From positions 65,709 to 129,708 of the forward strand of contig CAZIEY010000002.1 of NCBI GenBank assembly GCA_964538855.1: DNA of 64,000 nt. Direction: 5' to 3'. The position numbers and the translations under genes are program-made. Shown here piece by piece: positions 14,323 through 19,999 of this stretch. Under the pieces are notes generated by a model. That model did not search any database and was not told where the DNA came from. It was given only the letters and a program-made list of their open reading frames with translations. The DNA is from an uncultured Candidatus Saccharibacteria bacterium. GTDB taxonomy: Bacteria > Patescibacteriota > Minisyncoccia > Phycocordibacterales > JAACPR01. How positions within the stretch are numbered: position 1 is the stretch's first letter; every line of letters begins with the position of its first letter.

Positions 14323-15171
14323 ATGATAGATCAAAATCAATCAAACAACCAAACGCCACATTTTACTTCACCAGAAGTTACATCAATAAGAAATTATAAA
14401 CCGTATGTGTATGTTGCTATCCTCGCACTTATTGCAGTCGCAGGACTCGGATATTATGTGATGCCAGAAAAATATACACATCAACCGAGCTCTGTCCTGG
14501 AAGATGTACCAAATGCATCAAGCACTCCGGTTATTACGCAGCCAGTAACTCCACAAAATCCGAACCCAGTTGTAAATCCCACTCCTGAGCCAATCGCCTG
14601 CACAATGGATGCGATGATGTGTCCGGACGGAAGTTATATTGGTCGAAGTGGACCGAATTGCGAGTTTGTGTGTAAACAAAATCCGATAATTGACCGTGCG
14701 AGAGAAGTTTTGTTTATGTTGCAAAATAAAAATTACTCACAACTCGAGGAATTTATCAGTTCAGATGGTTTAGCTCTCAATAACCTTCCGAATGTAAACC
14801 TGACTAAAAATAACGTATTAAAGAAGGATATTTCCGATATTCCAAATGATTCAAAGGTGCATCTCTGGGGGTATACCGACGGGAAAGGGGACCCAATTAA
14901 CTTAACGACGAAAGATTTTATTGAGAAATGGATTACTCCAGAATTATTTATTAATGCTGATGAAATCGTTGTAAACAAAATTAAAGATGAAGGAACAAAC
15001 AGTTTGAATACTGTTTTACAAGATGCGGGAAATCGGACAGTTATCGGATTTTATCACGCAAGTGATGCAGCTTACCCAGGGTTAAATTGGGCGACCTTAT
15101 ATCTAGTTTTTGATCAGGAAAATGGCGTGTATATGTTACGTGGGATTTCAAGAAACCAGTGGTCAATTTAA
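14323..15171 (+). CDS. Hypothetical membrane-anchored protein with a Pro-rich linker
   Basis: 282-aa ORF with a TM helix (YVYVAILALIAVAGLGYYV) and a PVITQPVTPQNPNPVVNPTPEP linker. No recognisable catalytic motif. Confidence 0.55.
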   Translation: MIDQNQSNNQTPHFTSPEVTSIRNYKPYVYVAILALIAVAGLGYYVMPEKYTHQPSSVLEDVPNASSTPVITQPVTPQNPNPVVNPTPEPIACTMDAMMCPDGSYIGRSGPNCEFVCKQNPIIDRAREVLFMLQNKNYSQLEEFISSDGLALNNLPNVNLTKNNVLKKDISDIPNDSKVHLWGYTDGKGDPINLTTKDFIEKWITPELFINADEIVVNKIKDEGTNSLNTVLQDAGNRTVIGFYHASDAAYPGLNWATLYLVFDQENGVYMLRGISRNQWSI

Positions 15172-15860: not shown

Positions 15861-16121
15861 ATGGTAGTACGAATGAGACATACCCGGGCCCACACAGGGA
15901 ACCGACGATCACACCACGCTTTAACAGCGCCTGCAGTTTCTAATGGTCCAGACGGTTTGGCACATCGCCACCGAGTTTCTCCAATCACTGGAAAATACAA
16001 AGGTGTCCAAGTTCTCGATATGACAAAAGGCGAGGCGAAAAAATCTGCAAAAGCTGAAGCAAAAGATTCTAAAAAAATTGCCGCGAAATCAGAAGTAAAG
16101 AAAGACGAAAAGAAGAAGTAG
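15861..16121 (+). CDS. rpmF: Ribosomal protein bL32-like with a Lys-rich C-terminal extension
   Basis: MVVRMRHTRAHTGNRRSHHALTAPAVSNGPDG...HRHRVSP matches the bL32 core (RRSHHALTAP ... HRV). The ORF-track start at 15759 overlaps rnhB and was trimmed. Confidence 0.65.
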   Translation: MVVRMRHTRAHTGNRRSHHALTAPAVSNGPDGLAHRHRVSPITGKYKGVQVLDMTKGEAKKSAKAEAKDSKKIAAKSEVKKDEKKK

Positions 16122-16172
16122 ACAAATAACTGGCACTTGGCCGGTTTTTTGTTATACTAGAAAAGTATTCAT

Positions 16173-17072
16173 ATGGCGAATCGGCACCTTTCCAGATCAA
16201 TAGTGTTACAAACGCTTTTCGAAAGCGATGTGCGTGAAAAAGGATTAAAAGAATCCGAGGAGATTTTGATACGAAACGCAACTGAATTTGCAGAAGGAAC
16301 TTCTGATTCAGGCTTTATGATGGGTCTCTTGGCGACAGTTTTAGGCAAGCAAACTGAAATTAATAACATTATTGAAAAGGCGGCGCCTGACTGGCCTCTC
16401 GAAAAAATCTCGGTGATTGATAGAAATGTGCTGCGAATTGGTCTCGCGGAATTAATTTTTGGAAATCGTGCTGAAGTGCCGGCAAAAGTTGCAATTAACG
16501 AAGCGATTGAGCTCGCCAAAGCGTTCGGTGGTGAATCGTCTGGCAAATTCGTGAATGGAGTTTTGGGGGCGGTATACAAAGAACTTGGTGAACCCGGAAA
16601 AGACGAGGTGGCGAAGGACAAAAAAGTTCACGAAAAAATTCCGACCGAAACAAAGGCGGGTGCAATTATTTATGCACGCCAAGGAGAAGAAATTTATATG
16701 GCGCTCGTGCATGACGTATTTGGGCACTGGACTTTGTCAAAAGGTGGCATTGAAAAAGATGAAAATCCAGAGGAGGGTGTGGTGCGTGAGATAAAAGAAG
16801 AGCTCGGTCTTGAAATAATCGTTCGTGATAAAATTGGTGAAAATCAGTATATTGCAAATCACCCAGAGCGCGGAAAGATTCGCAAACACGTTGTGTATTT
16901 TTTGGCAGAAGCAGAGTACGCTGAAATCAAGCTCGAAAAATCAGGCGGGCTTGATGACGCACGATGGTTTAAATTAAAAGAGATACTTGATTTGAATTTT
17001 TATGATGATATTATGCCGCTCATCACGGATGCGGTGAAAAAAATTAGTAAACTCACGAAATTACCTTCGTAA
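16173..17072 (+). CDS. nusB: NusB (N-terminal ~140 aa) fused to a C-terminal NUDIX hydrolase domain
   Basis: The N-terminal half is NusB-like ([18 protein letters not shown]...[28 protein letters not shown]). The C-terminal half carries a Nudix box [24 protein letters not shown] (Gx5Ex7REUxEExGU). Confidence 0.8.
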
Positions 17073-17078
17073 ACTCTT

Positions 17079-17768
17079 ATGGATTTTAAAATTTTAGAGA
17101 AAAAAATCGGCATTGATTTCAAGGATAAAAATTTATTGAAACAAGCTTTTACACATCGCTCTTACCTAAATGAAAATCGTAAATTAGAAATGGGGCATAA
17201 TGAACGCCTCGAATTTTTGGGTGATGCGGTGCTCGAACTCGTGACAACTGATTTTTTGTATCATAAATACCCAAAGAAAGACGAAGGGGATTTAACTTCT
17301 CTTAGATCAGCACTAGTGAACACTATTACTATTTCAGAAACAGCGTCGGAACTTGGTTTCAATGAATACTTGTTAATGTCTCGAGGGGAAGCCAAAGACA
17401 CAGGTCGCGCGCGTCAATATATTTTAGCAAACACATTTGAATCGGTAATTGGTTCAATTTATCTTGATGGTGGATATGCCGAGGCTTTAAAATTCATTTC
17501 TACTTTTCTATTACCAAAACTAGATGAAATCGTCGAAAAGGGTTTGTGGTTGGATGCGAAAAGTAAGTTACAAGAAATTTCTCAAGATAAGTTTTCGATG
17601 ACACCCCTATACGAAACGATTAAACAAACAGGGCCAGATCACGACAAGACATTTACTGTTGTTGTGACATATGGCAAGGGTAAAAAAGCCGAAGGTGACG
17701 GAAAATCAAAACAAGAGGCCGAACAAGATGCGGCGCGCAATGTCCTTGTCGACGAAAATTGGTTATAA
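17079..17768 (+). CDS. rnc: Ribonuclease III
   Basis: ERLEFLGDAVLELV signature and a C-terminal dsRBD. Confidence 0.9.
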   Translation: MDFKILEKKIGIDFKDKNLLKQAFTHRSYLNENRKLEMGHNERLEFLGDAVLELVTTDFLYHKYPKKDEGDLTSLRSALVNTITISETASELGFNEYLLMSRGEAKDTGRARQYILANTFESVIGSIYLDGGYAEALKFISTFLLPKLDEIVEKGLWLDAKSKLQEISQDKFSMTPLYETIKQTGPDHDKTFTVVVTYGKGKKAEGDGKSKQEAEQDAARNVLVDENWL

Positions 17769-17776
17769 TATACCTC

Positions 17777-19999
17777 ATGAATTTGAAGTCGCTAGAAATA
17801 AATGGTTTCAAGTCCTTTGCGAAAAAGGCGATTTTGAATTTTAACGCGCCAATTTCTTCGATTGTGGGACCGAATGGTTCTGGAAAATCTAACGTGGCAG
17901 AAGCGTTTCGATTTGCACTTGGTGAACAATCTTTTAAATCGATGCGTGGAAAACGTGGCGAAGATTTGATTTTTGGTGGAACGGCGACTGTACCAAAACA
18001 AAATCGGGCGAGCGTGAAAGTGACTTTGGACAACTCTGACAAAAAATTACCAATTGATTTCGAAGAAGTTATTTTAGAGCGCGTTGTACACCGTGACGGT
18101 GTGAATGAATATCTGATTAATGGATCACAGGTACGTTTGCGTGATATTAACGAATTGCTTGCTTCTGCAAATATTGGTTCGAGTGGTCATCACATCATTT
18201 CTCAGGGTGAGGCGGACCGGCTTTTGAATGCTTCAATCAAGGAGCGCAAGCAGACGTTAGAAGAAGCACTCGGCTTACGAATTCACCAATACAAAAAAAT
18301 TGAGAGTCAAAAGAAGTTACAGAAAACTCGTGAAAATATCGAGAAGGTCGAATCGTTACGTCGCGAGATTATTCCGCATTTGAAATTTTTGAAAAAGCAG
18401 GTGGAAAAAATTGAGGAAGGTAAAAAGCTCAAAGAAAGTTTGAAGGCGGCGTATCAGACGTATTTGAAAATCGAATCACTCTATTTGCAGGCTGAAAAAA
18501 ATCGTATCGCAGTGGAAATCACTGTACCAAAAGATCGTCTCAAAGAAATTGAGCGTGATATTCAAAAATATGAGGTGGAAACTAAACAGGCAATAAATAA
18601 TGCCCTTGTCGAAGCCGTTAAGCAAGGTGAAACAAATGTGTCGGCTATCTTTGCTTTAAAAAGCGAATTACAGAGAAAAATCGGGCGTCTGGAGGGGCAA
18701 ATCAGTTCGCTTGAGAAATTAAGGGAAAAAACTGAAAGAAAAGAGCAGTTTAGTTCGCTTACACTTTCGTCTGAAGATGTGCACACGCTCAAAAAAGAGA
18801 GTGAATTGATGGAGGTGAATGTCGGCAATATCGAACTATTGCGCGAAGTCGTAACGCGCGTGATTGCATTTATAAAGAAAATTACTCAGTCAAACTATTC
18901 AAACGAAAAGGAGAATGTTTTTTACGACGAGGAAATTAAAAATTATCGCGCCGAATTGGCGGAGGCTGAAGATGAATTGGTTGTGGCTGAGCAAAAAGAA
19001 TTGCATGCTCAACAAACTCTCGCTGATGCGCGCGTCGCTTTGGAAGCTGATAAATCTCAGTCGTTTGAAGCGGAAAAGAAAATTATTGCTCTTATGTCGG
19101 AAAAAAATGATTTACAAAAAATTGTTTCAAATTTTGCAATTGCACTCGACATTTTGGAACGTGACGAGGCTGCGTATAAATTGGAATTGACCGAGGCAGC
19201 GGTGCTCGTAGGTCGTGACGTGCTCGAATTTGAATCAGTTGTGGTGCCGACTAATGAATCGCGTGATGCACAAATTTCTCGTCGCAAAGATTTGGAGCGA
19301 ACGAAAATCAAGGTTGAAGAATCTGGTATTGGATCAGGTGATGATACCATAAAAGAATTTAAAGAAGTTTCAGATCGCGATGTATTTTTGCTTGCCGAAA
19401 TTACTGATTTGGAAAATTCTGCACAATCGCTCGAAATGCTCATCGTGGATTTGGAAAATAAGATAGAAACTGAGTTCGAGTCGGGTCTCGAAAAAATCAA
19501 CACCCAATTTCAAAAGTTTTTTGAGCTTATGTTTGGTGGGGGAAGTGCTTCTCTCAAGAAAATCAAAATCGCAGCACGTAAACGCAAAGACACGGATTTG
19601 CTATCCGAAGACGACATGGAAAATCCAGAAGAGTTTGATGAAGGTGAGGAAGGTGTCGACATCAGTGTGAATTTACCTCGCAAAAAAGTGCGGGATTTGA
19701 TGATGTTATCGGGTGGGGAACGCGCGCTGACTTCGATTGCGCTTTTGTTTGCAATTTCTCAGGTCAATCCGCCACCATTTATTATTTTGGATGAAACTGA
19801 TGCCGCCCTCGACGAAGCAAATAGCCGAAAATACGGTGACATGATCGAAAGTCTTTCAAAATATTCTCAACTCATTCTAATTACTCATAATCGAGAAACG
19901 ATGTCGCGCGCAGGAATTTTGTATGGTGTGACTATGATGCATGGCGTATCCCAATTATTGTCGGTCGCGTTTGAGGAGGGTGTGAAGTTTGCGAAGTAG
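17777..19999 (+). CDS. smc: SMC-like chromosome segregation ATPase (short, ~740 aa)
   Basis: N-terminal LEINGFKSFA...IVGPNGSGKSNVAEAFRFALGEQS Walker A. C-terminal signature LSGGERALTSIALLFAI plus Walker B ILDETDAALD, with long coiled-coils. The start was moved to MNLKSL (17777) because the track start overlaps rnc. Confidence 0.8.
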   Translation: MNLKSLEINGFKSFAKKAILNFNAPISSIVGPNGSGKSNVAEAFRFALGEQSFKSMRGKRGEDLIFGGTATVPKQNRASVKVTLDNSDKKLPIDFEEVILERVVHRDGVNEYLINGSQVRLRDINELLASANIGSSGHHIISQGEADRLLNASIKERKQTLEEALGLRIHQYKKIESQKKLQKTRENIEKVESLRREIIPHLKFLKKQVEKIEEGKKLKESLKAAYQTYLKIESLYLQAEKNRIAVEITVPKDRLKEIERDIQKYEVETKQAINNALVEAVKQGETNVSAIFALKSELQRKIGRLEGQISSLEKLREKTERKEQFSSLTLSSEDVHTLKKESELMEVNVGNIELLREVVTRVIAFIKKITQSNYSNEKENVFYDEEIKNYRAELAEAEDELVVAEQKELHAQQTLADARVALEADKSQSFEAEKKIIALMSEKNDLQKIVSNFAIALDILERDEAAYKLELTEAAVLVGRDVLEFESVVVPTNESRDAQISRRKDLERTKIKVEESGIGSGDDTIKEFKEVSDRDVFLLAEITDLENSAQSLEMLIVDLENKIETEFESGLEKINTQFQKFFELMFGGGSASLKKIKIAARKRKDTDLLSEDDMENPEEFDEGEEGVDISVNLPRKKVRDLMMLSGGERALTSIALLFAISQVNPPPFIILDETDAALDEANSRKYGDMIESLSKYSQLILITHNRETMSRAGILYGVTMMHGVSQLLSVAFEEGVKFAK

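What the first reader, a model, noticed from the sequence alone, without database searches (positions are those of the whole stretch)
16173..17072. NusB fused in-frame to a NUDIX hydrolase domain
The first ~140 aa are a recognisable NusB antitermination factor. The C-terminal ~150 aa carry a complete Nudix box ([24 protein letters not shown]). A transcription antitermination factor covalently linked to a nucleotide-pyrophosphatase domain could couple rRNA transcription to (p)ppGpp, Ap4A, NAD-cap or similar nucleotide levels. It is not an arrangement I know from model bacteria.
Basis: partly seen in the sequence, partly recalled or inferred. Interest (0 to 1): 0.6.

Follow-up and report, generated by a model that had tools for sequence, protein, structure and literature searches.

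The report
NusB with tethered Nudix domain
A real, widely conserved gene in tiny "candidate phyla radiation" bacteria joins the rRNA-transcription factor NusB to a nucleotide-polyphosphate-binding Nudix domain; nobody appears to have studied it, and it may link ribosomal RNA synthesis to RNA 5'-end or nucleotide chemistry.

Summary
Window 16173-17072 (+) is one 299-aa ORF. It holds a bona fide NusB (aa 4-138; TIGR01951 114.5 bits against a cutoff of 88), a flexible Lys/Glu-rich linker, and a Nudix domain (aa 158-295) with a perfect Nudix box.

It is not a frameshift artefact. All 120 best homologue clusters carry both domains, and 80 species-level Patescibacteria genomes encode it full-length. 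In 80/80 related loci RNase III (rnc) lies directly downstream, within a conserved rnhB-rpmF-[nusB::nudix]-rnc-smc order.

The Nudix half belongs to the NUDT2 / Ndx1 / Aquifex aq_158 diadenosine-polyphosphate hydrolase type (TM 0.91 to 3I7U). It is not RppH, NudC or MutT by curated cutoffs.

New finding: the phosphate-binding and base-stacking pocket residues (K190, Y226, Y277) are almost invariant across 230 fusions. The catalytic Glu206, equivalent to NUDT2 E58, is kept in only 106/230 and has changed at least 45 times. Only 71/230 have a complete box; this window's protein is one of them.

The domain's conserved role is therefore ligand or 5'-end binding, with hydrolysis optional. I found no paper describing it. 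Verdict: a new variant of known kinds, of moderate to good interest, with the mechanism inferred rather than shown.

The parts
16173..17072 (+). Complete nusB::nudix fusion gene (299 aa plus stop)
   Evidence: ORF listing and sequence. Pfam NusB plus NUDIX. An identical protein is called as one gene on an independent Logan contig.
16173..16586 (+). NusB domain, aa 1-138. It has seven helices, an N-terminal MANRHLSRS motif and the C-terminal signature [30 protein letters not shown].
   Evidence: TIGR01951 scores 114.5 bits, above its 88.35 cutoff. PDB sequence hits to NusB of Thermotoga, Aquifex, E. coli and Mycobacterium. AF2 helices at 4-21, 25-39, 46-58, 60-70, 81-96, 104-119 and 121-138, mostly with pLDDT 80-96. 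39% identity to E. coli NusB, including the F122-equivalent F126.
16587..16643 (+). Junction and linker, aa 139-157. A strongly conserved G-E-P-G-K motif (aa 139-143) is followed by a variable Lys/Glu/Asp-rich tether.
   Evidence: AF2 pLDDT is below 50 for aa 140-154 and pTM is 0.53, so no fixed domain orientation is predicted. G139 217/231, E140 209, P141 216, G142 199, K143 211. The aa 139-160 segment (the linker plus the first residues of the Nudix domain) measures mostly 22-29 aa across the family, with composition K 21%, E 15%, D 10%.
16644..17057 (+). Nudix domain, aa 158-295, of the NUDT2 / Ndx1 / aq_158 ApnA-hydrolase type
   Evidence: Pfam NUDIX E 1.8e-16. Foldseek: 3I7U Aquifex Ap4A hydrolase TM(target) 0.91, rmsd 1.8 A; then CT771, Ndx1, MutT1/Rv2985 and NUDT2. 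phmmer hits to CT771 at 1.8e-11, aq_158 at 1.5e-9 and Dcp2 at 3e-8.
16743..16811 (+). Nudix box, aa 191-213: [23 protein letters not shown], canonical at every specified position
   Evidence: Direct reading and regex match. E206 aligns to NUDT2 E58 (NUDT2 sequence verified). E210 occupies the last-Glu position of REUXEE, the position mutated in Ndx1 E50Q.
16725..16742 (+). H185-W-T-L-S-K190: the 'HW-T-x-x-K-G' phosphate-binding motif preceding the box (NUDT2 H37 and K42 equivalents)
   Evidence: Alignment to NUDT2. The roles of His, Lys42, Tyr82 and Lys89 at the P1 phosphate site come from PMC4734340. W186 and T187 are invariant and K190 is 229/230.
16848..16850 (+). Y226 codon: equivalent of NUDT2 Tyr82 (adenine stacking and P1 phosphate contact). 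Its stacking partner Y277 is at nt 17001-17003.
   Evidence: alignment. PMC4734340 for residue roles. Y226 225/230 and Y277 229/230.
15873..16121 (+). rpmF (ribosomal protein L32, 82 aa), the conserved upstream neighbour
   Evidence: Pfam Ribosomal_L32p. Found upstream on the same strand in 70/80 related loci.
16128..16158 (+). Intergenic hairpin plus T-run (16128-16146) overlapping a promoter-like site (CTGGCA-17-TATACT with TG, 16130-16158). This is a possible own promoter giving a very short leader.
   Evidence: Consensus scan only; the counts are not above shuffled expectation. Weak evidence.
17079..17768 (+). rnc (RNase III, 229 aa). It starts 6 nt after the fusion gene's stop and is probably co-transcribed.
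   Evidence: Pfam Ribonuclease_3 plus dsrm. Lies downstream on the same strand in 80/80 related loci, and also next to the most divergent fusions.

Best explanation
SHOWN: The gene encodes the organism's NusB (the boxA-RNA/S10-binding nucleator of the rRNA antitermination complex). Its C-terminus carries an NUDT2/Ndx1/aq_158-type Nudix domain on a flexible, charged tether of roughly 15-25 residues. The fusion is ancient and fixed in a large group of Patescibacteria, and it always sits between rpmF and rnc.

INFERRED MECHANISM: NusB-S10 binds boxA in the 5' leader of the nascent pre-rRNA. This places the tethered Nudix domain at high local concentration next to the 5' end of that transcript. 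The domain's conserved pocket has His/Lys/Tyr/Lys for the phosphate chain and a Tyr-Tyr pair to sandwich a purine. It would capture the 5'-terminal nucleoside polyphosphate (pppN/ppN or an Np4N cap). In proteins with an intact catalytic box, such as this window's, it would hydrolyse that end to a 5'-monophosphate, as NUDT2 and RppH do. Together with the co-encoded RNase III, this would mark the excised leader or pre-rRNA end for 5'-P-dependent processing.

In the many orthologues that have lost Glu206 or more of the box, the domain would only hold or read the 5' end. Binding is therefore the conserved activity and hydrolysis the optional one.
For: - NusB identity: TIGR01951 above its curated cutoff, the NusB fold, and the RNA-binding C-terminal signature shared with E. 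coli NusB.
- Real fusion.
- Flexible tether: pLDDT below 50 at aa 140-154 and pTM 0.53.
- Nudix subtype: 3I7U with TM 0.91 and rmsd 1.8 A, then CT771, Ndx1, Rv2985 and NUDT2. Sequence hits to CT771, aq_158, the Dcp2 decapping domain and NUDT2. The stand-alone relative P0209 hits aq_158 at 9e-23.
- Pocket residues align to NUDT2 H37, K42, Y82, K89 and F128. Their phosphate-binding and adenine-stacking roles are described in PMC4734340. They are nearly invariant: K190 229/230, Y226 225/230, Y277 229/230, K238 218/230.
- The NUDT2 family acts on RNA 5' ends. NUDT2 converts PPP-RNA to P-RNA, and the E58A mutant is inactive (PMC8616924).
- This window's protein has every catalytic box residue.
- rnc is immediately downstream in 80/80 loci and next to the most divergent fusions.
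- Precedent for a NusB-like domain delivering an enzyme to rRNA: the RsmB models hit the NusB half. That RsmB has an N-terminal NusB-like RNA-binding domain is established knowledge.
- Anecdotal: one RNase E/G protein carries two related degenerate Nudix domains.
Against: - No experiment exists, and no RNA substrate or boxA element was examined (there is no rRNA operon in the window).
- Glu206 (NUDT2 E58) is kept in only 106/230 fusions, with at least 45 changes on an NJ tree. Only 71/230 boxes are complete. An essential catalytic step is therefore unlikely to be the family-wide function.
- The Nudix half is acidic (median pI 5.2, net charge -6) and has no obvious basic RNA-binding surface. 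NUDT2 is equally acidic, however.
- The curated RppH models are far below cutoff: 31 bits against 118.
- The rpmF...rnc-smc synteny could be inherited gene order rather than functional coupling.
- The RNase E/G-Nudix example is a singleton on a 2x-coverage contig, and no homologues of it were found.
Confidence: 0.35

Rival explanations
1. Small-molecule sensor. The Nudix domain binds a free adenine-nucleotide polyphosphate (Ap4A/ApnA, ATP or a related alarmone) and, depending on the ligand, modulates NusB's assembly into or activity within the antitermination complex. This would tie rRNA synthesis to nucleotide supply or stress in nucleotide-scavenging CPR cells. Where retained, hydrolysis only resets the sensor.
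For: - The conservation pattern is that of a ligand-binding pseudoenzyme. Pocket residues are invariant, while catalytic Glu206 is variable and often accompanied by further box decay: 86/230 have 2 or more non-canonical positions and 41/230 have 3 or more.
- The closest solved relatives are ApnA hydrolases.
- The Nudix sensor domain of NrtR, which binds ADP-ribose, appears among the top structural matches, though with poor rmsd. NrtR is an established precedent for a degenerate Nudix domain acting as a regulator's effector-binding module (own knowledge).
Against: - AF2 predicts no interface between the domains (linker pLDDT below 50, pTM 0.53), so there is no visible route for allostery.
- E210 (222/230) and E209 (E or D in 206/230) stay conserved. 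This suggests that metal-phosphate chemistry still matters.
- No data on alarmone metabolism in these genomes.
Confidence: 0.3
2. Functionally independent housekeeping ApnA / nucleotide-polyphosphate hydrolase. It became fused to NusB during genome compaction and is co-expressed with it, with no mechanistic coupling to antitermination.
For: - CPR genomes are highly compacted. The window has genes spaced by a few nt or overlapping, for example rnc/smc.
- The linker is flexible, with no predicted domain contact.
- The Nudix half resembles ordinary stand-alone ApnA hydrolases.
Against: - A housekeeping hydrolase would not tolerate repeated loss of its catalytic Glu (at least 45 changes; complete box in only 31%) while keeping its binding pocket.
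- The fusion has persisted down to 32-39% identity in the Nudix half with unchanged gene order.
- No genuine fission was found. The two apparent splits examined are a contig-edge truncation and a single in-frame TAA.
- The junction motif GEPGK is conserved.
Confidence: 0.15
3. Non-catalytic structural subunit. The Nudix fold serves as a protein-protein docking module of the CPR rRNA antitermination complex, analogous to the inositol-monophosphatase-fold protein SuhB in the E. coli rrnTAC.
For: - Catalytic residues are dispensable in many lineages.
- Conserved clade-specific surface motifs lie outside the box (HDVFGHW, GENxYxANHPExGK, [17 protein letters not shown]) in close homologues.
- NusB chains occur in rrnTAC structures 6TQN/6TQO. 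SuhB's structural role there is established knowledge and was not tested here.
Against: - The residues that stay invariant even in the most divergent fusions (K190, Y226, Y277, W186, T187) are the ligand-pocket residues of ApnA hydrolases, not a new surface.
- Most of the clade-specific motifs are not conserved in the divergent set.
Confidence: 0.1
4. Artefact: two separate genes (nusB and a Nudix gene) joined by a sequencing or assembly frameshift.
For: None found. One related metagenome contig (L084) shows the two halves as separate calls.
Against: - The same uninterrupted architecture occurs in hundreds of independent assemblies from four data sources.
- The L084 split is a single in-frame TAA at the Tyr135 codon, with the frame and the conserved motif continuing.
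Confidence: 0.01

Closest known systems
NusB (transcription antitermination factor; E. coli, Aquifex and Thermotoga NusB; PF01029 / TIGR01951)
   Same: The N-terminal 138 aa have the seven-helix NusB fold. They score above the curated equivalog cutoff and share the [24 protein letters not shown] signature, including the F122 equivalent.
   Different: All characterised NusB proteins are single-domain, about 130-160 aa. This one continues through a conserved GEPGK junction and a charged tether into a 140-aa Nudix domain.
Aquifex aeolicus Ap4A hydrolase aq_158 (3I7U), T. thermophilus Ndx1 Ap6A hydrolase (1VC8), Chlamydia CT771 (4ILQ), human NUDT2 (3U53)
   Same: These are the best structural and sequence matches to the C-terminal half: TM 0.91 and rmsd 1.8 A to 3I7U, with 27-30% identity. 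They share the W-T-x-x-K-G motif, the loop-5 Tyr, the Lys after it and the C-terminal aromatic stacking residue. This window's protein also has a full Nudix box.
   Different: Those enzymes are free-standing, with conserved catalytic glutamates. Here the domain is fused to NusB. Pro in the WT-x-P-K-G motif is Ser. Family-wide, the first Glu of REUXEE (NUDT2 E58) is frequently replaced by V, K, A, I or G.
RppH / NUDT2 / Dcp2 RNA 5'-end Nudix hydrolases
   Same: They have the same fold and are related by sequence (Dcp2 Nudix domain E 3e-8; BdRppH among the Foldseek hits). [quoted passage not shown]
   Different: The protein does not reach the curated RppH models (31 bits against 118). It has no Dcp2 regulatory domain or Box B, and no activity data.
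RsmB/Sun 16S rRNA m5C967 methyltransferase (NusB-like domain fused to an enzyme)
   Same: It is a natural precedent for a NusB-type RNA-binding module covalently joined to an rRNA-acting catalytic domain. The RsmB models hit the NusB half (E 8e-11).
   Different: In RsmB the NusB-like domain is a diverged paralogue and the partner is a SAM methyltransferase. Here the NusB half is the orthologous NusB itself and the partner is a Nudix domain.
NrtR-type regulators (degenerate Nudix effector-binding domain plus DNA-binding domain)
   Same: A Nudix fold is used as a tethered ligand-binding module whose catalytic box is often degenerate. The NrtR Nudix domain is among the structural matches.
   Different: NrtR's Nudix is ADP-ribose-type and is fused to a winged helix that binds DNA. 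The structural match is poor (rmsd 7.4 A). The partner here is an RNA-binding elongation factor.

Membership tests
NusB (TIGR01951 / PF01029) | Sequence profile match above the curated equivalog cutoff | tested here: met
   TIGR01951 scores 114.5 bits against a cutoff of 88.35, over aa 4-137. Pfam NusB scores 106 bits against 23.1.
NusB (TIGR01951 / PF01029) | All-alpha, seven-helix NusB fold | tested here: met
   The AF2 model has seven helices between aa 4 and 138, mostly with pLDDT 80-96. phmmer hits to solved NusB structures 1TZT, 2JR0, 3D3B and 1EYV.
NusB (TIGR01951 / PF01029) | Conserved C-terminal RNA/NusE-proximal signature (E. coli [30 protein letters not shown], including F122) | tested here: met
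F126, N128 and G129 are invariant in 230 fusions.
NusB (TIGR01951 / PF01029) | Forms a heterodimer with S10 (NusE) and binds boxA RNA; sole nusB of the genome | not testable with these tools
   There is no rRNA leader in the window and no whole-genome access. No second NusB is present in the 64-kb window.
Nudix hydrolase superfamily (PF00293) | Nudix box GX5EX7REUXEEXGU | tested here: met
   aa 191-213 match at every specified position.
Nudix hydrolase superfamily (PF00293) | alpha/beta/alpha Nudix fold | tested here: met
   The AF2 strands and helices of aa 158-295 superpose on many Nudix structures with Foldseek probability 1.00.
Nudix hydrolase superfamily (PF00293) | Catalytic glutamates conserved among orthologues, as expected for an enzyme under selection for hydrolysis | tested here: not met
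   E206 is kept in 106/230, with at least 45 changes. The full box is present in 71/230, and 41/230 have 3 or more non-canonical positions. E210 is kept in 222/230. This criterion is met for this window's own sequence but not for the family.
NUDT2 / Ndx1 / aq_158-type ApnA hydrolases | Closest fold and sequence neighbours are members of this group | tested here: met
   3I7U has TM(target) 0.91 and rmsd 1.8 A. CT771, Ndx1, Rv2985 and NUDT2 all fall in the top 41. phmmer E-values range from 1.8e-11 to 1e-6.
NUDT2 / Ndx1 / aq_158-type ApnA hydrolases | P1-phosphate ligands (His before Trp, Lys of the P-K-G motif, loop-5 Tyr, following Lys) and the aromatic pair that stacks the adenine | tested here: met
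   H185, K190, Y226, K238 and Y277 align to NUDT2 H37, K42, Y82, K89 and F128 (NUDT2 sequence verified against 3U53). The residue roles come from PMC4734340.
NUDT2 / Ndx1 / aq_158-type ApnA hydrolases | Mg2+-dependent asymmetric hydrolysis of Ap4A-Ap6A | not testable with these tools
   Requires an enzyme assay.
RppH (RNA pyrophosphohydrolase, NCBIfam PRK00714 models) | Profile match above the curated cutoff | tested here: not met
   The best RppH model, NF001936, scores 30.9 bits against a cutoff of 118, and the match covers only the box region aa 170-215.
NudC (NAD-cap / NADH pyrophosphatase, NF001299) | Profile match above cutoff, with an N-terminal/zinc-binding domain and a downstream NADH-pyrophosphatase motif | tested here: not met
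   26.1 bits against a cutoff of 158. The domain is a minimal Nudix fold of about 140 aa. NudC structures rank only 39-40 in Foldseek.
RsmB (NusB-like domain plus methyltransferase) | Profile match above cutoff and presence of a methyltransferase domain | tested here: not met
   41.3 bits against a cutoff of 319, over the NusB part only. No methyltransferase domain was found.

The most novel reading that the evidence does not exclude
The Nudix domain is a dedicated reader of a nucleoside-polyphosphate signal. That signal is either the 5'-ppp/Np4N-capped end of the nascent pre-rRNA or a free ApnA-type alarmone, and it gates or directs Nus-factor antitermination and RNase III-linked pre-rRNA processing in Patescibacteria. 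This would be a previously unknown regulatory input to the bacterial rRNA antitermination complex. Lineages would toggle between a hydrolysing form (intact box, as here) and a purely binding form.
Probability: 0.3. Interest if true: 0.8.

Novelty: new variant of a known kind. Interest (0 to 1): 0.55.

Why it matters
NusB is one of the most conserved and best-understood bacterial transcription elongation factors, and it has been regarded as a single-domain protein.

A large, uncultivated branch of bacteria has permanently attached a nucleotide-polyphosphate-binding, RNA-decapping-type domain to it. That branch has minimal genomes, scavenges nucleotides and processes rRNA in unusual ways. The fusion implies a direct physical link between the rRNA antitermination complex and either RNA 5'-end chemistry or nucleotide or alarmone sensing.

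The natural series of orthologues with and without the catalytic Glu offers a ready-made set of 'active' and 'dead' variants for testing this. The protein is small and soluble-looking, and both halves have well-established assays, so the hypothesis can be tested directly.

If the domain proves to be an ordinary housekeeping hydrolase, the case is still a useful example of gene fusion under genome reduction, but of limited wider importance.

Tried and rejected
1. Frameshift or assembly artefact: rejected.

2. Natural fission forms that would act as a 'Rosetta stone'. The Nudix-only representatives of high identity are mostly fragments. The two I examined are not true splits. P0134 starts 38 nt from a contig edge and is followed by rnc. 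P0138/L084 is split by one in-frame TAA at the Tyr135 codon.

3. Taxonomic names for divergent fusions and stand-alone relatives via cluster look-ups. Almost no names were returned, only 'bacterium' and one Omnitrophota Nudix. The class-level range beyond Parcubacteria-type lineages therefore stays open. Many loci are labelled 'uncultured Candidatus Saccharibacteria' by one submitter series, which I could not verify.

4. Foldseek against AFDB50 to find fusions in UniProt: the library was not available.

5. How common the RNase E/G-Nudix architecture (P0242) is: the word-index homology search of its C-terminus returned nothing. I treat it as an anecdote only.

6. Literature: four searches combining NusB, Nudix, Patescibacteria, Parcubacteria, CPR and fusion found no paper describing the fusion (one search was for NUDT2).

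7. Looking for an rRNA operon or boxA in the window: there are none, only three tRNAs.

8. Charge of the Nudix half as a hint of RNA binding: it is acidic (pI about 5.2) like NUDT2, so this is uninformative.

9. Promoter and terminator scan around the gene: the matches are not above the shuffled background.

10. NAD-cap (NudC), MutT, ADP-ribose and CoA-type Nudix assignments: all curated models fall far below cutoff.
Full report
**1. Observation**

Window 16173-17072 (+) is one open reading frame of 299 codons. Pfam detects NusB at aa 7-136 (E 2e-30) and NUDIX at aa 161-275 (E 1.8e-16). The NCBIfam equivalog model for NusB, TIGR01951, scores 114.5 bits, above its curated cutoff of 88.35.

It fits the Nudix signature GX5EX7REUXEEXGU at every specified position: G191, E197, R205-E206, I207, E209-E210, G212, L213 (regex). 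There is no other NusB or Nudix ORF in the 64-kb window, whose GC content is 43%.

**2. Not an artefact, and widely conserved**

- The identical protein is present in other assemblies (P0001) and is called as a single gene on an independent contig.
- All 120 best homologue clusters carry both Pfam domains. They are 62-100% identical, about 295-315 aa long, and come from NCBI, JGI, ENA and Logan.
Both search patterns lie in the NusB half, so not all 594 need be fusions.
- The 80 best loci all align over residues 1 to 288 or more, and 75 full-length ORFs of 290-330 aa were extracted from them.
- Named sources are Patescibacteria, Parcubacteria and Paceibacterota lineages: Kaiser-, Adler-, Nomura-, Taylor-, Lloyd-, Yonath- and Zambryskibacteria. 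Many records from one submitter series are labelled 'uncultured Candidatus Saccharibacteria', which I could not verify.
- A full HMMER scan of 1.84 billion representatives with the Nudix half alone found only 199 clusters at E of 1e-10 or better. Of the best 150 listed, 37 carry a (near-)full-length NusB match and 18 more a partial one.
- Of the 38 representatives kept as full-length fusions, plus this window's protein (39 in all), all match Pfam NusB and 37 match Pfam NUDIX.
- Nudix-only hits of high identity are mostly fragments. Two apparent splits were examined: one starts 38 nt from a contig edge and one is split by a single in-frame TAA replacing the Tyr135 codon. I found no genuine fission.

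**3. Genomic context**

The window order is dnaE(-), an unknown ORF, rnhB, rpmF (15873-16121), nusB::nudix, rnc (17079-17768, starting 6 nt after the stop), and a short smc.

In the 80 related loci, the neighbours occur as follows:

| Neighbour | Position | Loci |
|---|---|---|
| rnc | directly downstream, same strand | 80/80 |
| smc | follows | 71 |
| rpmF | precedes | 70 |
| rnhB | upstream | 64 |
| dnaE | upstream | 56 |

The most divergent fusions, with only 32-39% identity in the Nudix half, have the same rpmF-fusion-rnc-smc order. A hairpin plus T-run and a promoter-like site lie between rpmF and the gene, but such matches are not above the shuffled background.

**4. Anatomy**

AlphaFold2 on a 46-sequence alignment gives mean pLDDT 83.
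- Seven helices span aa 4-138 (NusB).
- Residues 140-154 have pLDDT below 50.
- A well-folded alpha/beta Nudix domain covers aa 158-295.
- pTM is only 0.53, meaning two rigid domains with no predicted fixed orientation.

The junction motif Y135-K-E-x-G-E-P-G-K143 is strongly conserved, at 199-225 of 231 sequences per position. The aa 139-160 segment that starts with it is mostly 22-29 residues long across the family; after the motif its sequence is variable and rich in Lys/Glu/Asp.

The NusB half shares 39% identity with E. coli NusB over the aligned part. That part includes the signature [25 protein letters not shown] and the F122 equivalent.

**5. What kind of Nudix domain**

- Foldseek against the PDB puts Aquifex Ap4A hydrolase aq_158 first: TM 0.91 normalised to the target, rmsd 1.8 A, 29% identity. 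It is followed by mycobacterial MutT1/Rv2985 (a diadenosine polyphosphatase), Chlamydia CT771, Thermus Ndx1 (Ap6A hydrolase), human NUDT2 and C. elegans Ap4A hydrolase. BdRppH, NudC and Dcp2 rank lower.
- By sequence, the best solved relatives are CT771 (1.8e-11), aq_158 (1.5e-9), the Dcp2 decapping Nudix domain (3e-8) and NUDT2 (5e-7).
- Stand-alone relatives of about 140-150 aa from other bacteria have a canonical box and a W-T-[FL]-P-K-G-H motif. One of them hits aq_158 at 9e-23.
- Curated models for RppH (31 against 118 bits), NudC (26 against 158), MutT, NudI and others are all far below cutoff.

The domain is therefore an ApnA-hydrolase-type (NUDT2/Ndx1-like) Nudix fold. This is the group that also includes enzymes acting on RNA 5' ends. 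NUDT2 converts PPP-RNA to P-RNA, and its E58A mutant is inactive (PMC8616924).

**6. Residue-level mapping**

The E58A crystal and NMR constructs differ from it exactly at the first Glu of REUXEE.

BLASTP of the Nudix half against NUDT2 gives these equivalences:

| This protein | NUDT2 |
|---|---|
| H185 | H37 |
| W186 | W38 |
| K190 | K42 |
| G191 | G43 |
| E197 | E49 |
| R205 | R57 |
| E206 | E58 |
| E209/E210 | E61/E62 |
| Y226 | Y82 |
| K238 | K89 |
| Y277 | F128 |

PMC4734340 describes the roles of these residues. The His, Lys42, Tyr82 and Lys89-equivalent residues hold the P1 phosphate. The loop-5 Tyr plus a Tyr/Phe (Phe128) stack the adenine. The Ndx1 E50Q trap mutant changes the last Glu of REUXEE, the position that E210 occupies in this protein's box.

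**7. The unexpected pattern**

I examined 230 full-length fusions: the close homologues, the GTDB loci and the divergent representatives. The pocket residues are almost invariant, while the catalytic box is not.

| Residue | Retained (of 230) |
|---|---|
| W186, T187 | entropy below 0.15 bits |
| K190 | 229 |
| Y277 | 229 |
| Y226 | 225 |
| K238 | 218 |
| E210 | 222 |
| G212 | 202 |
| R205 | 187 |
| E197 | 181 |
| E209 | 179 (plus 27 Asp) |
| E206 | 106 |

- E206 is replaced by V (45), K (31), A (18), I (16) or G (10).
- On a neighbour-joining tree, E206 needs at least 45 E/non-E changes, against 1 for K190 and 1 for Y277. This is a rough parsimony count, not a model-based test.
- Only 71/230 proteins have the full canonical box. 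86 have two or more non-canonical positions and 41 have three or more.
- In the 39-sequence divergent set, E206 is Glu in 10/39. Several boxes are wholly degenerate, for example VDILKRKINM and VKKIKEKLDV. The domain, its pocket residues and the gene order nevertheless persist.

This window's protein belongs to the minority with an intact box and is predicted to be catalytically competent. Family-wide, what is under strong selection is the nucleotide-polyphosphate pocket, not the chemistry mediated by Glu206. I cannot exclude that these proteins hydrolyse with E209/E210 and another base.

**8. Mechanism**

*Shown:* a bona fide NusB; a flexible tether; an ApnA/NUDT2-type pocket; optional catalytic residues; and invariant linkage to rnc.

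*Inferred (best guess, about 0.35):*
- NusB-S10 binding to boxA in the pre-rRNA leader brings the tethered Nudix domain next to the transcript's 5' end.
- The pocket captures the 5'-terminal nucleoside polyphosphate or an Np4N cap.
- Intact-box proteins such as this one convert it to a 5'-monophosphate, as NUDT2 and RppH do, cooperating with RNase III in leader removal.
- Degenerate-box orthologues only hold or read the end.

Supporting analogies:
- RsmB, in which a NusB-like domain delivers an enzyme to rRNA.
- The established role of Nus factors in RNase III processing of pre-rRNA (own knowledge).
- A single RNase E/G protein carrying two related degenerate Nudix domains. This is a singleton on a 2x-coverage contig, and no homologues of it were found.

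Rivals:
- *Free-nucleotide or ApnA sensor regulating antitermination (about 0.30).* It fits the pseudoenzyme-like conservation pattern and the NrtR precedent. However, no interdomain interface is predicted.
- *Uncoupled housekeeping hydrolase fused by genome compaction (about 0.15).* This is hard to reconcile with repeated catalytic loss alongside pocket retention and the absence of fissions.
- *SuhB-like structural subunit (about 0.10).* The residues that remain invariant are ligand-pocket residues rather than a new surface.
- *Artefact (about 0.01).*

**9. Comparison and novelty**

Each half is a member of a well-known family. The NusB membership tests were met. The Nudix fold, box and ApnA-type pocket tests were met. 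Membership of RppH, NudC and RsmB was tested and not met.

The combination is absent from characterised bacteria. Public annotation calls these proteins simply 'transcription antitermination factor NusB'. Four literature searches found no description of the fusion. I rate it a new variant of a known kind.

Interest is 0.55. The fusion is real, ancient, phylum-scale and directly testable, and the catalytic-toggle pattern is an added curiosity. The mechanism is inference only, and domain accretion on housekeeping proteins in reduced genomes is not in itself rare.

Noticed in passing
L083 4001-4453 (protein P0146): The closest genuinely stand-alone relative of the fused Nudix domain (150 aa, 46% identity) lies among phage or mobile-element-like genes. 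These are an integrase (weak hit), a DNA methylase, Phage_rep_O (faint hit) and many small unknown ORFs. A mobile copy of this Nudix subtype may therefore exist.
   Followed up: partly
L084 542-1459: An apparent split into nusB (133 aa) plus nudix (141 aa) between rpmF and rnc is caused by a single in-frame TAA where the conserved Tyr135 codon should be. The frame and the KELGEPRKD motif continue, so this is a nonsense mutation or a read error in one metagenome contig, not a real fission.
   Followed up: yes
L088 6001-9225 (protein P0242): A 1074-aa protein with S1, RNase E/G and a thioredoxin-like domain carries two tandem degenerate Nudix-like domains at its C-terminus (boxes YHAIKNDLGL and YRTVKGELGL). 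They are related to this Nudix domain (E 2.4e-14). It is a singleton on a 2x-coverage contig of a non-CPR-looking genome, and no homologues of the C-terminus were found by the word-index search.
   Followed up: partly
proteins P0213 and P0217: Two other architectures contain this Nudix subtype. One is a 577-aa protein with an uncharacterised N-terminal extension of about 300 aa before NusB plus Nudix. The other is a 379-aa protein with Sigma70_r4 and DnaA-C helix-turn-helix domains followed by Nudix.
   Followed up: no
window 15873-16121: Ribosomal protein L32 is 82 aa, with a long Lys-rich C-terminal tail (…KGEAKKSAKAEAKDSKKIAAKSEVKKDEKKK). Relatives have 85-105 aa versions (L084-L086).
   Followed up: no
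window 17759-19999: The SMC-family gene downstream of rnc encodes only 746 aa (696-735 aa in L085 and L086). The SMC_N match spans aa 9-729. The gene overlaps the end of rnc by 10 nt. This suggests an unusually short SMC.
   Followed up: no
window 14323-15171: A 282-aa ORF between dnaE and rnhB has no Pfam match. It has an N-terminal hydrophobic segment, a Pro/Thr/Asn-rich linker and a Cys-rich motif (CTMDAMMCPDGSYIGRSGPNCEFVC). It was found in only 1 of 80 related loci.
   Followed up: no
window 16587-16601 (aa 139-143): The G-E-P-G-K motif at the NusB/linker junction is conserved in about 90% of 231 fusions, even though it lies in a region AlphaFold models as disordered. Its role is unexplained; it could be a docking or hinge element.
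   Followed up: partly
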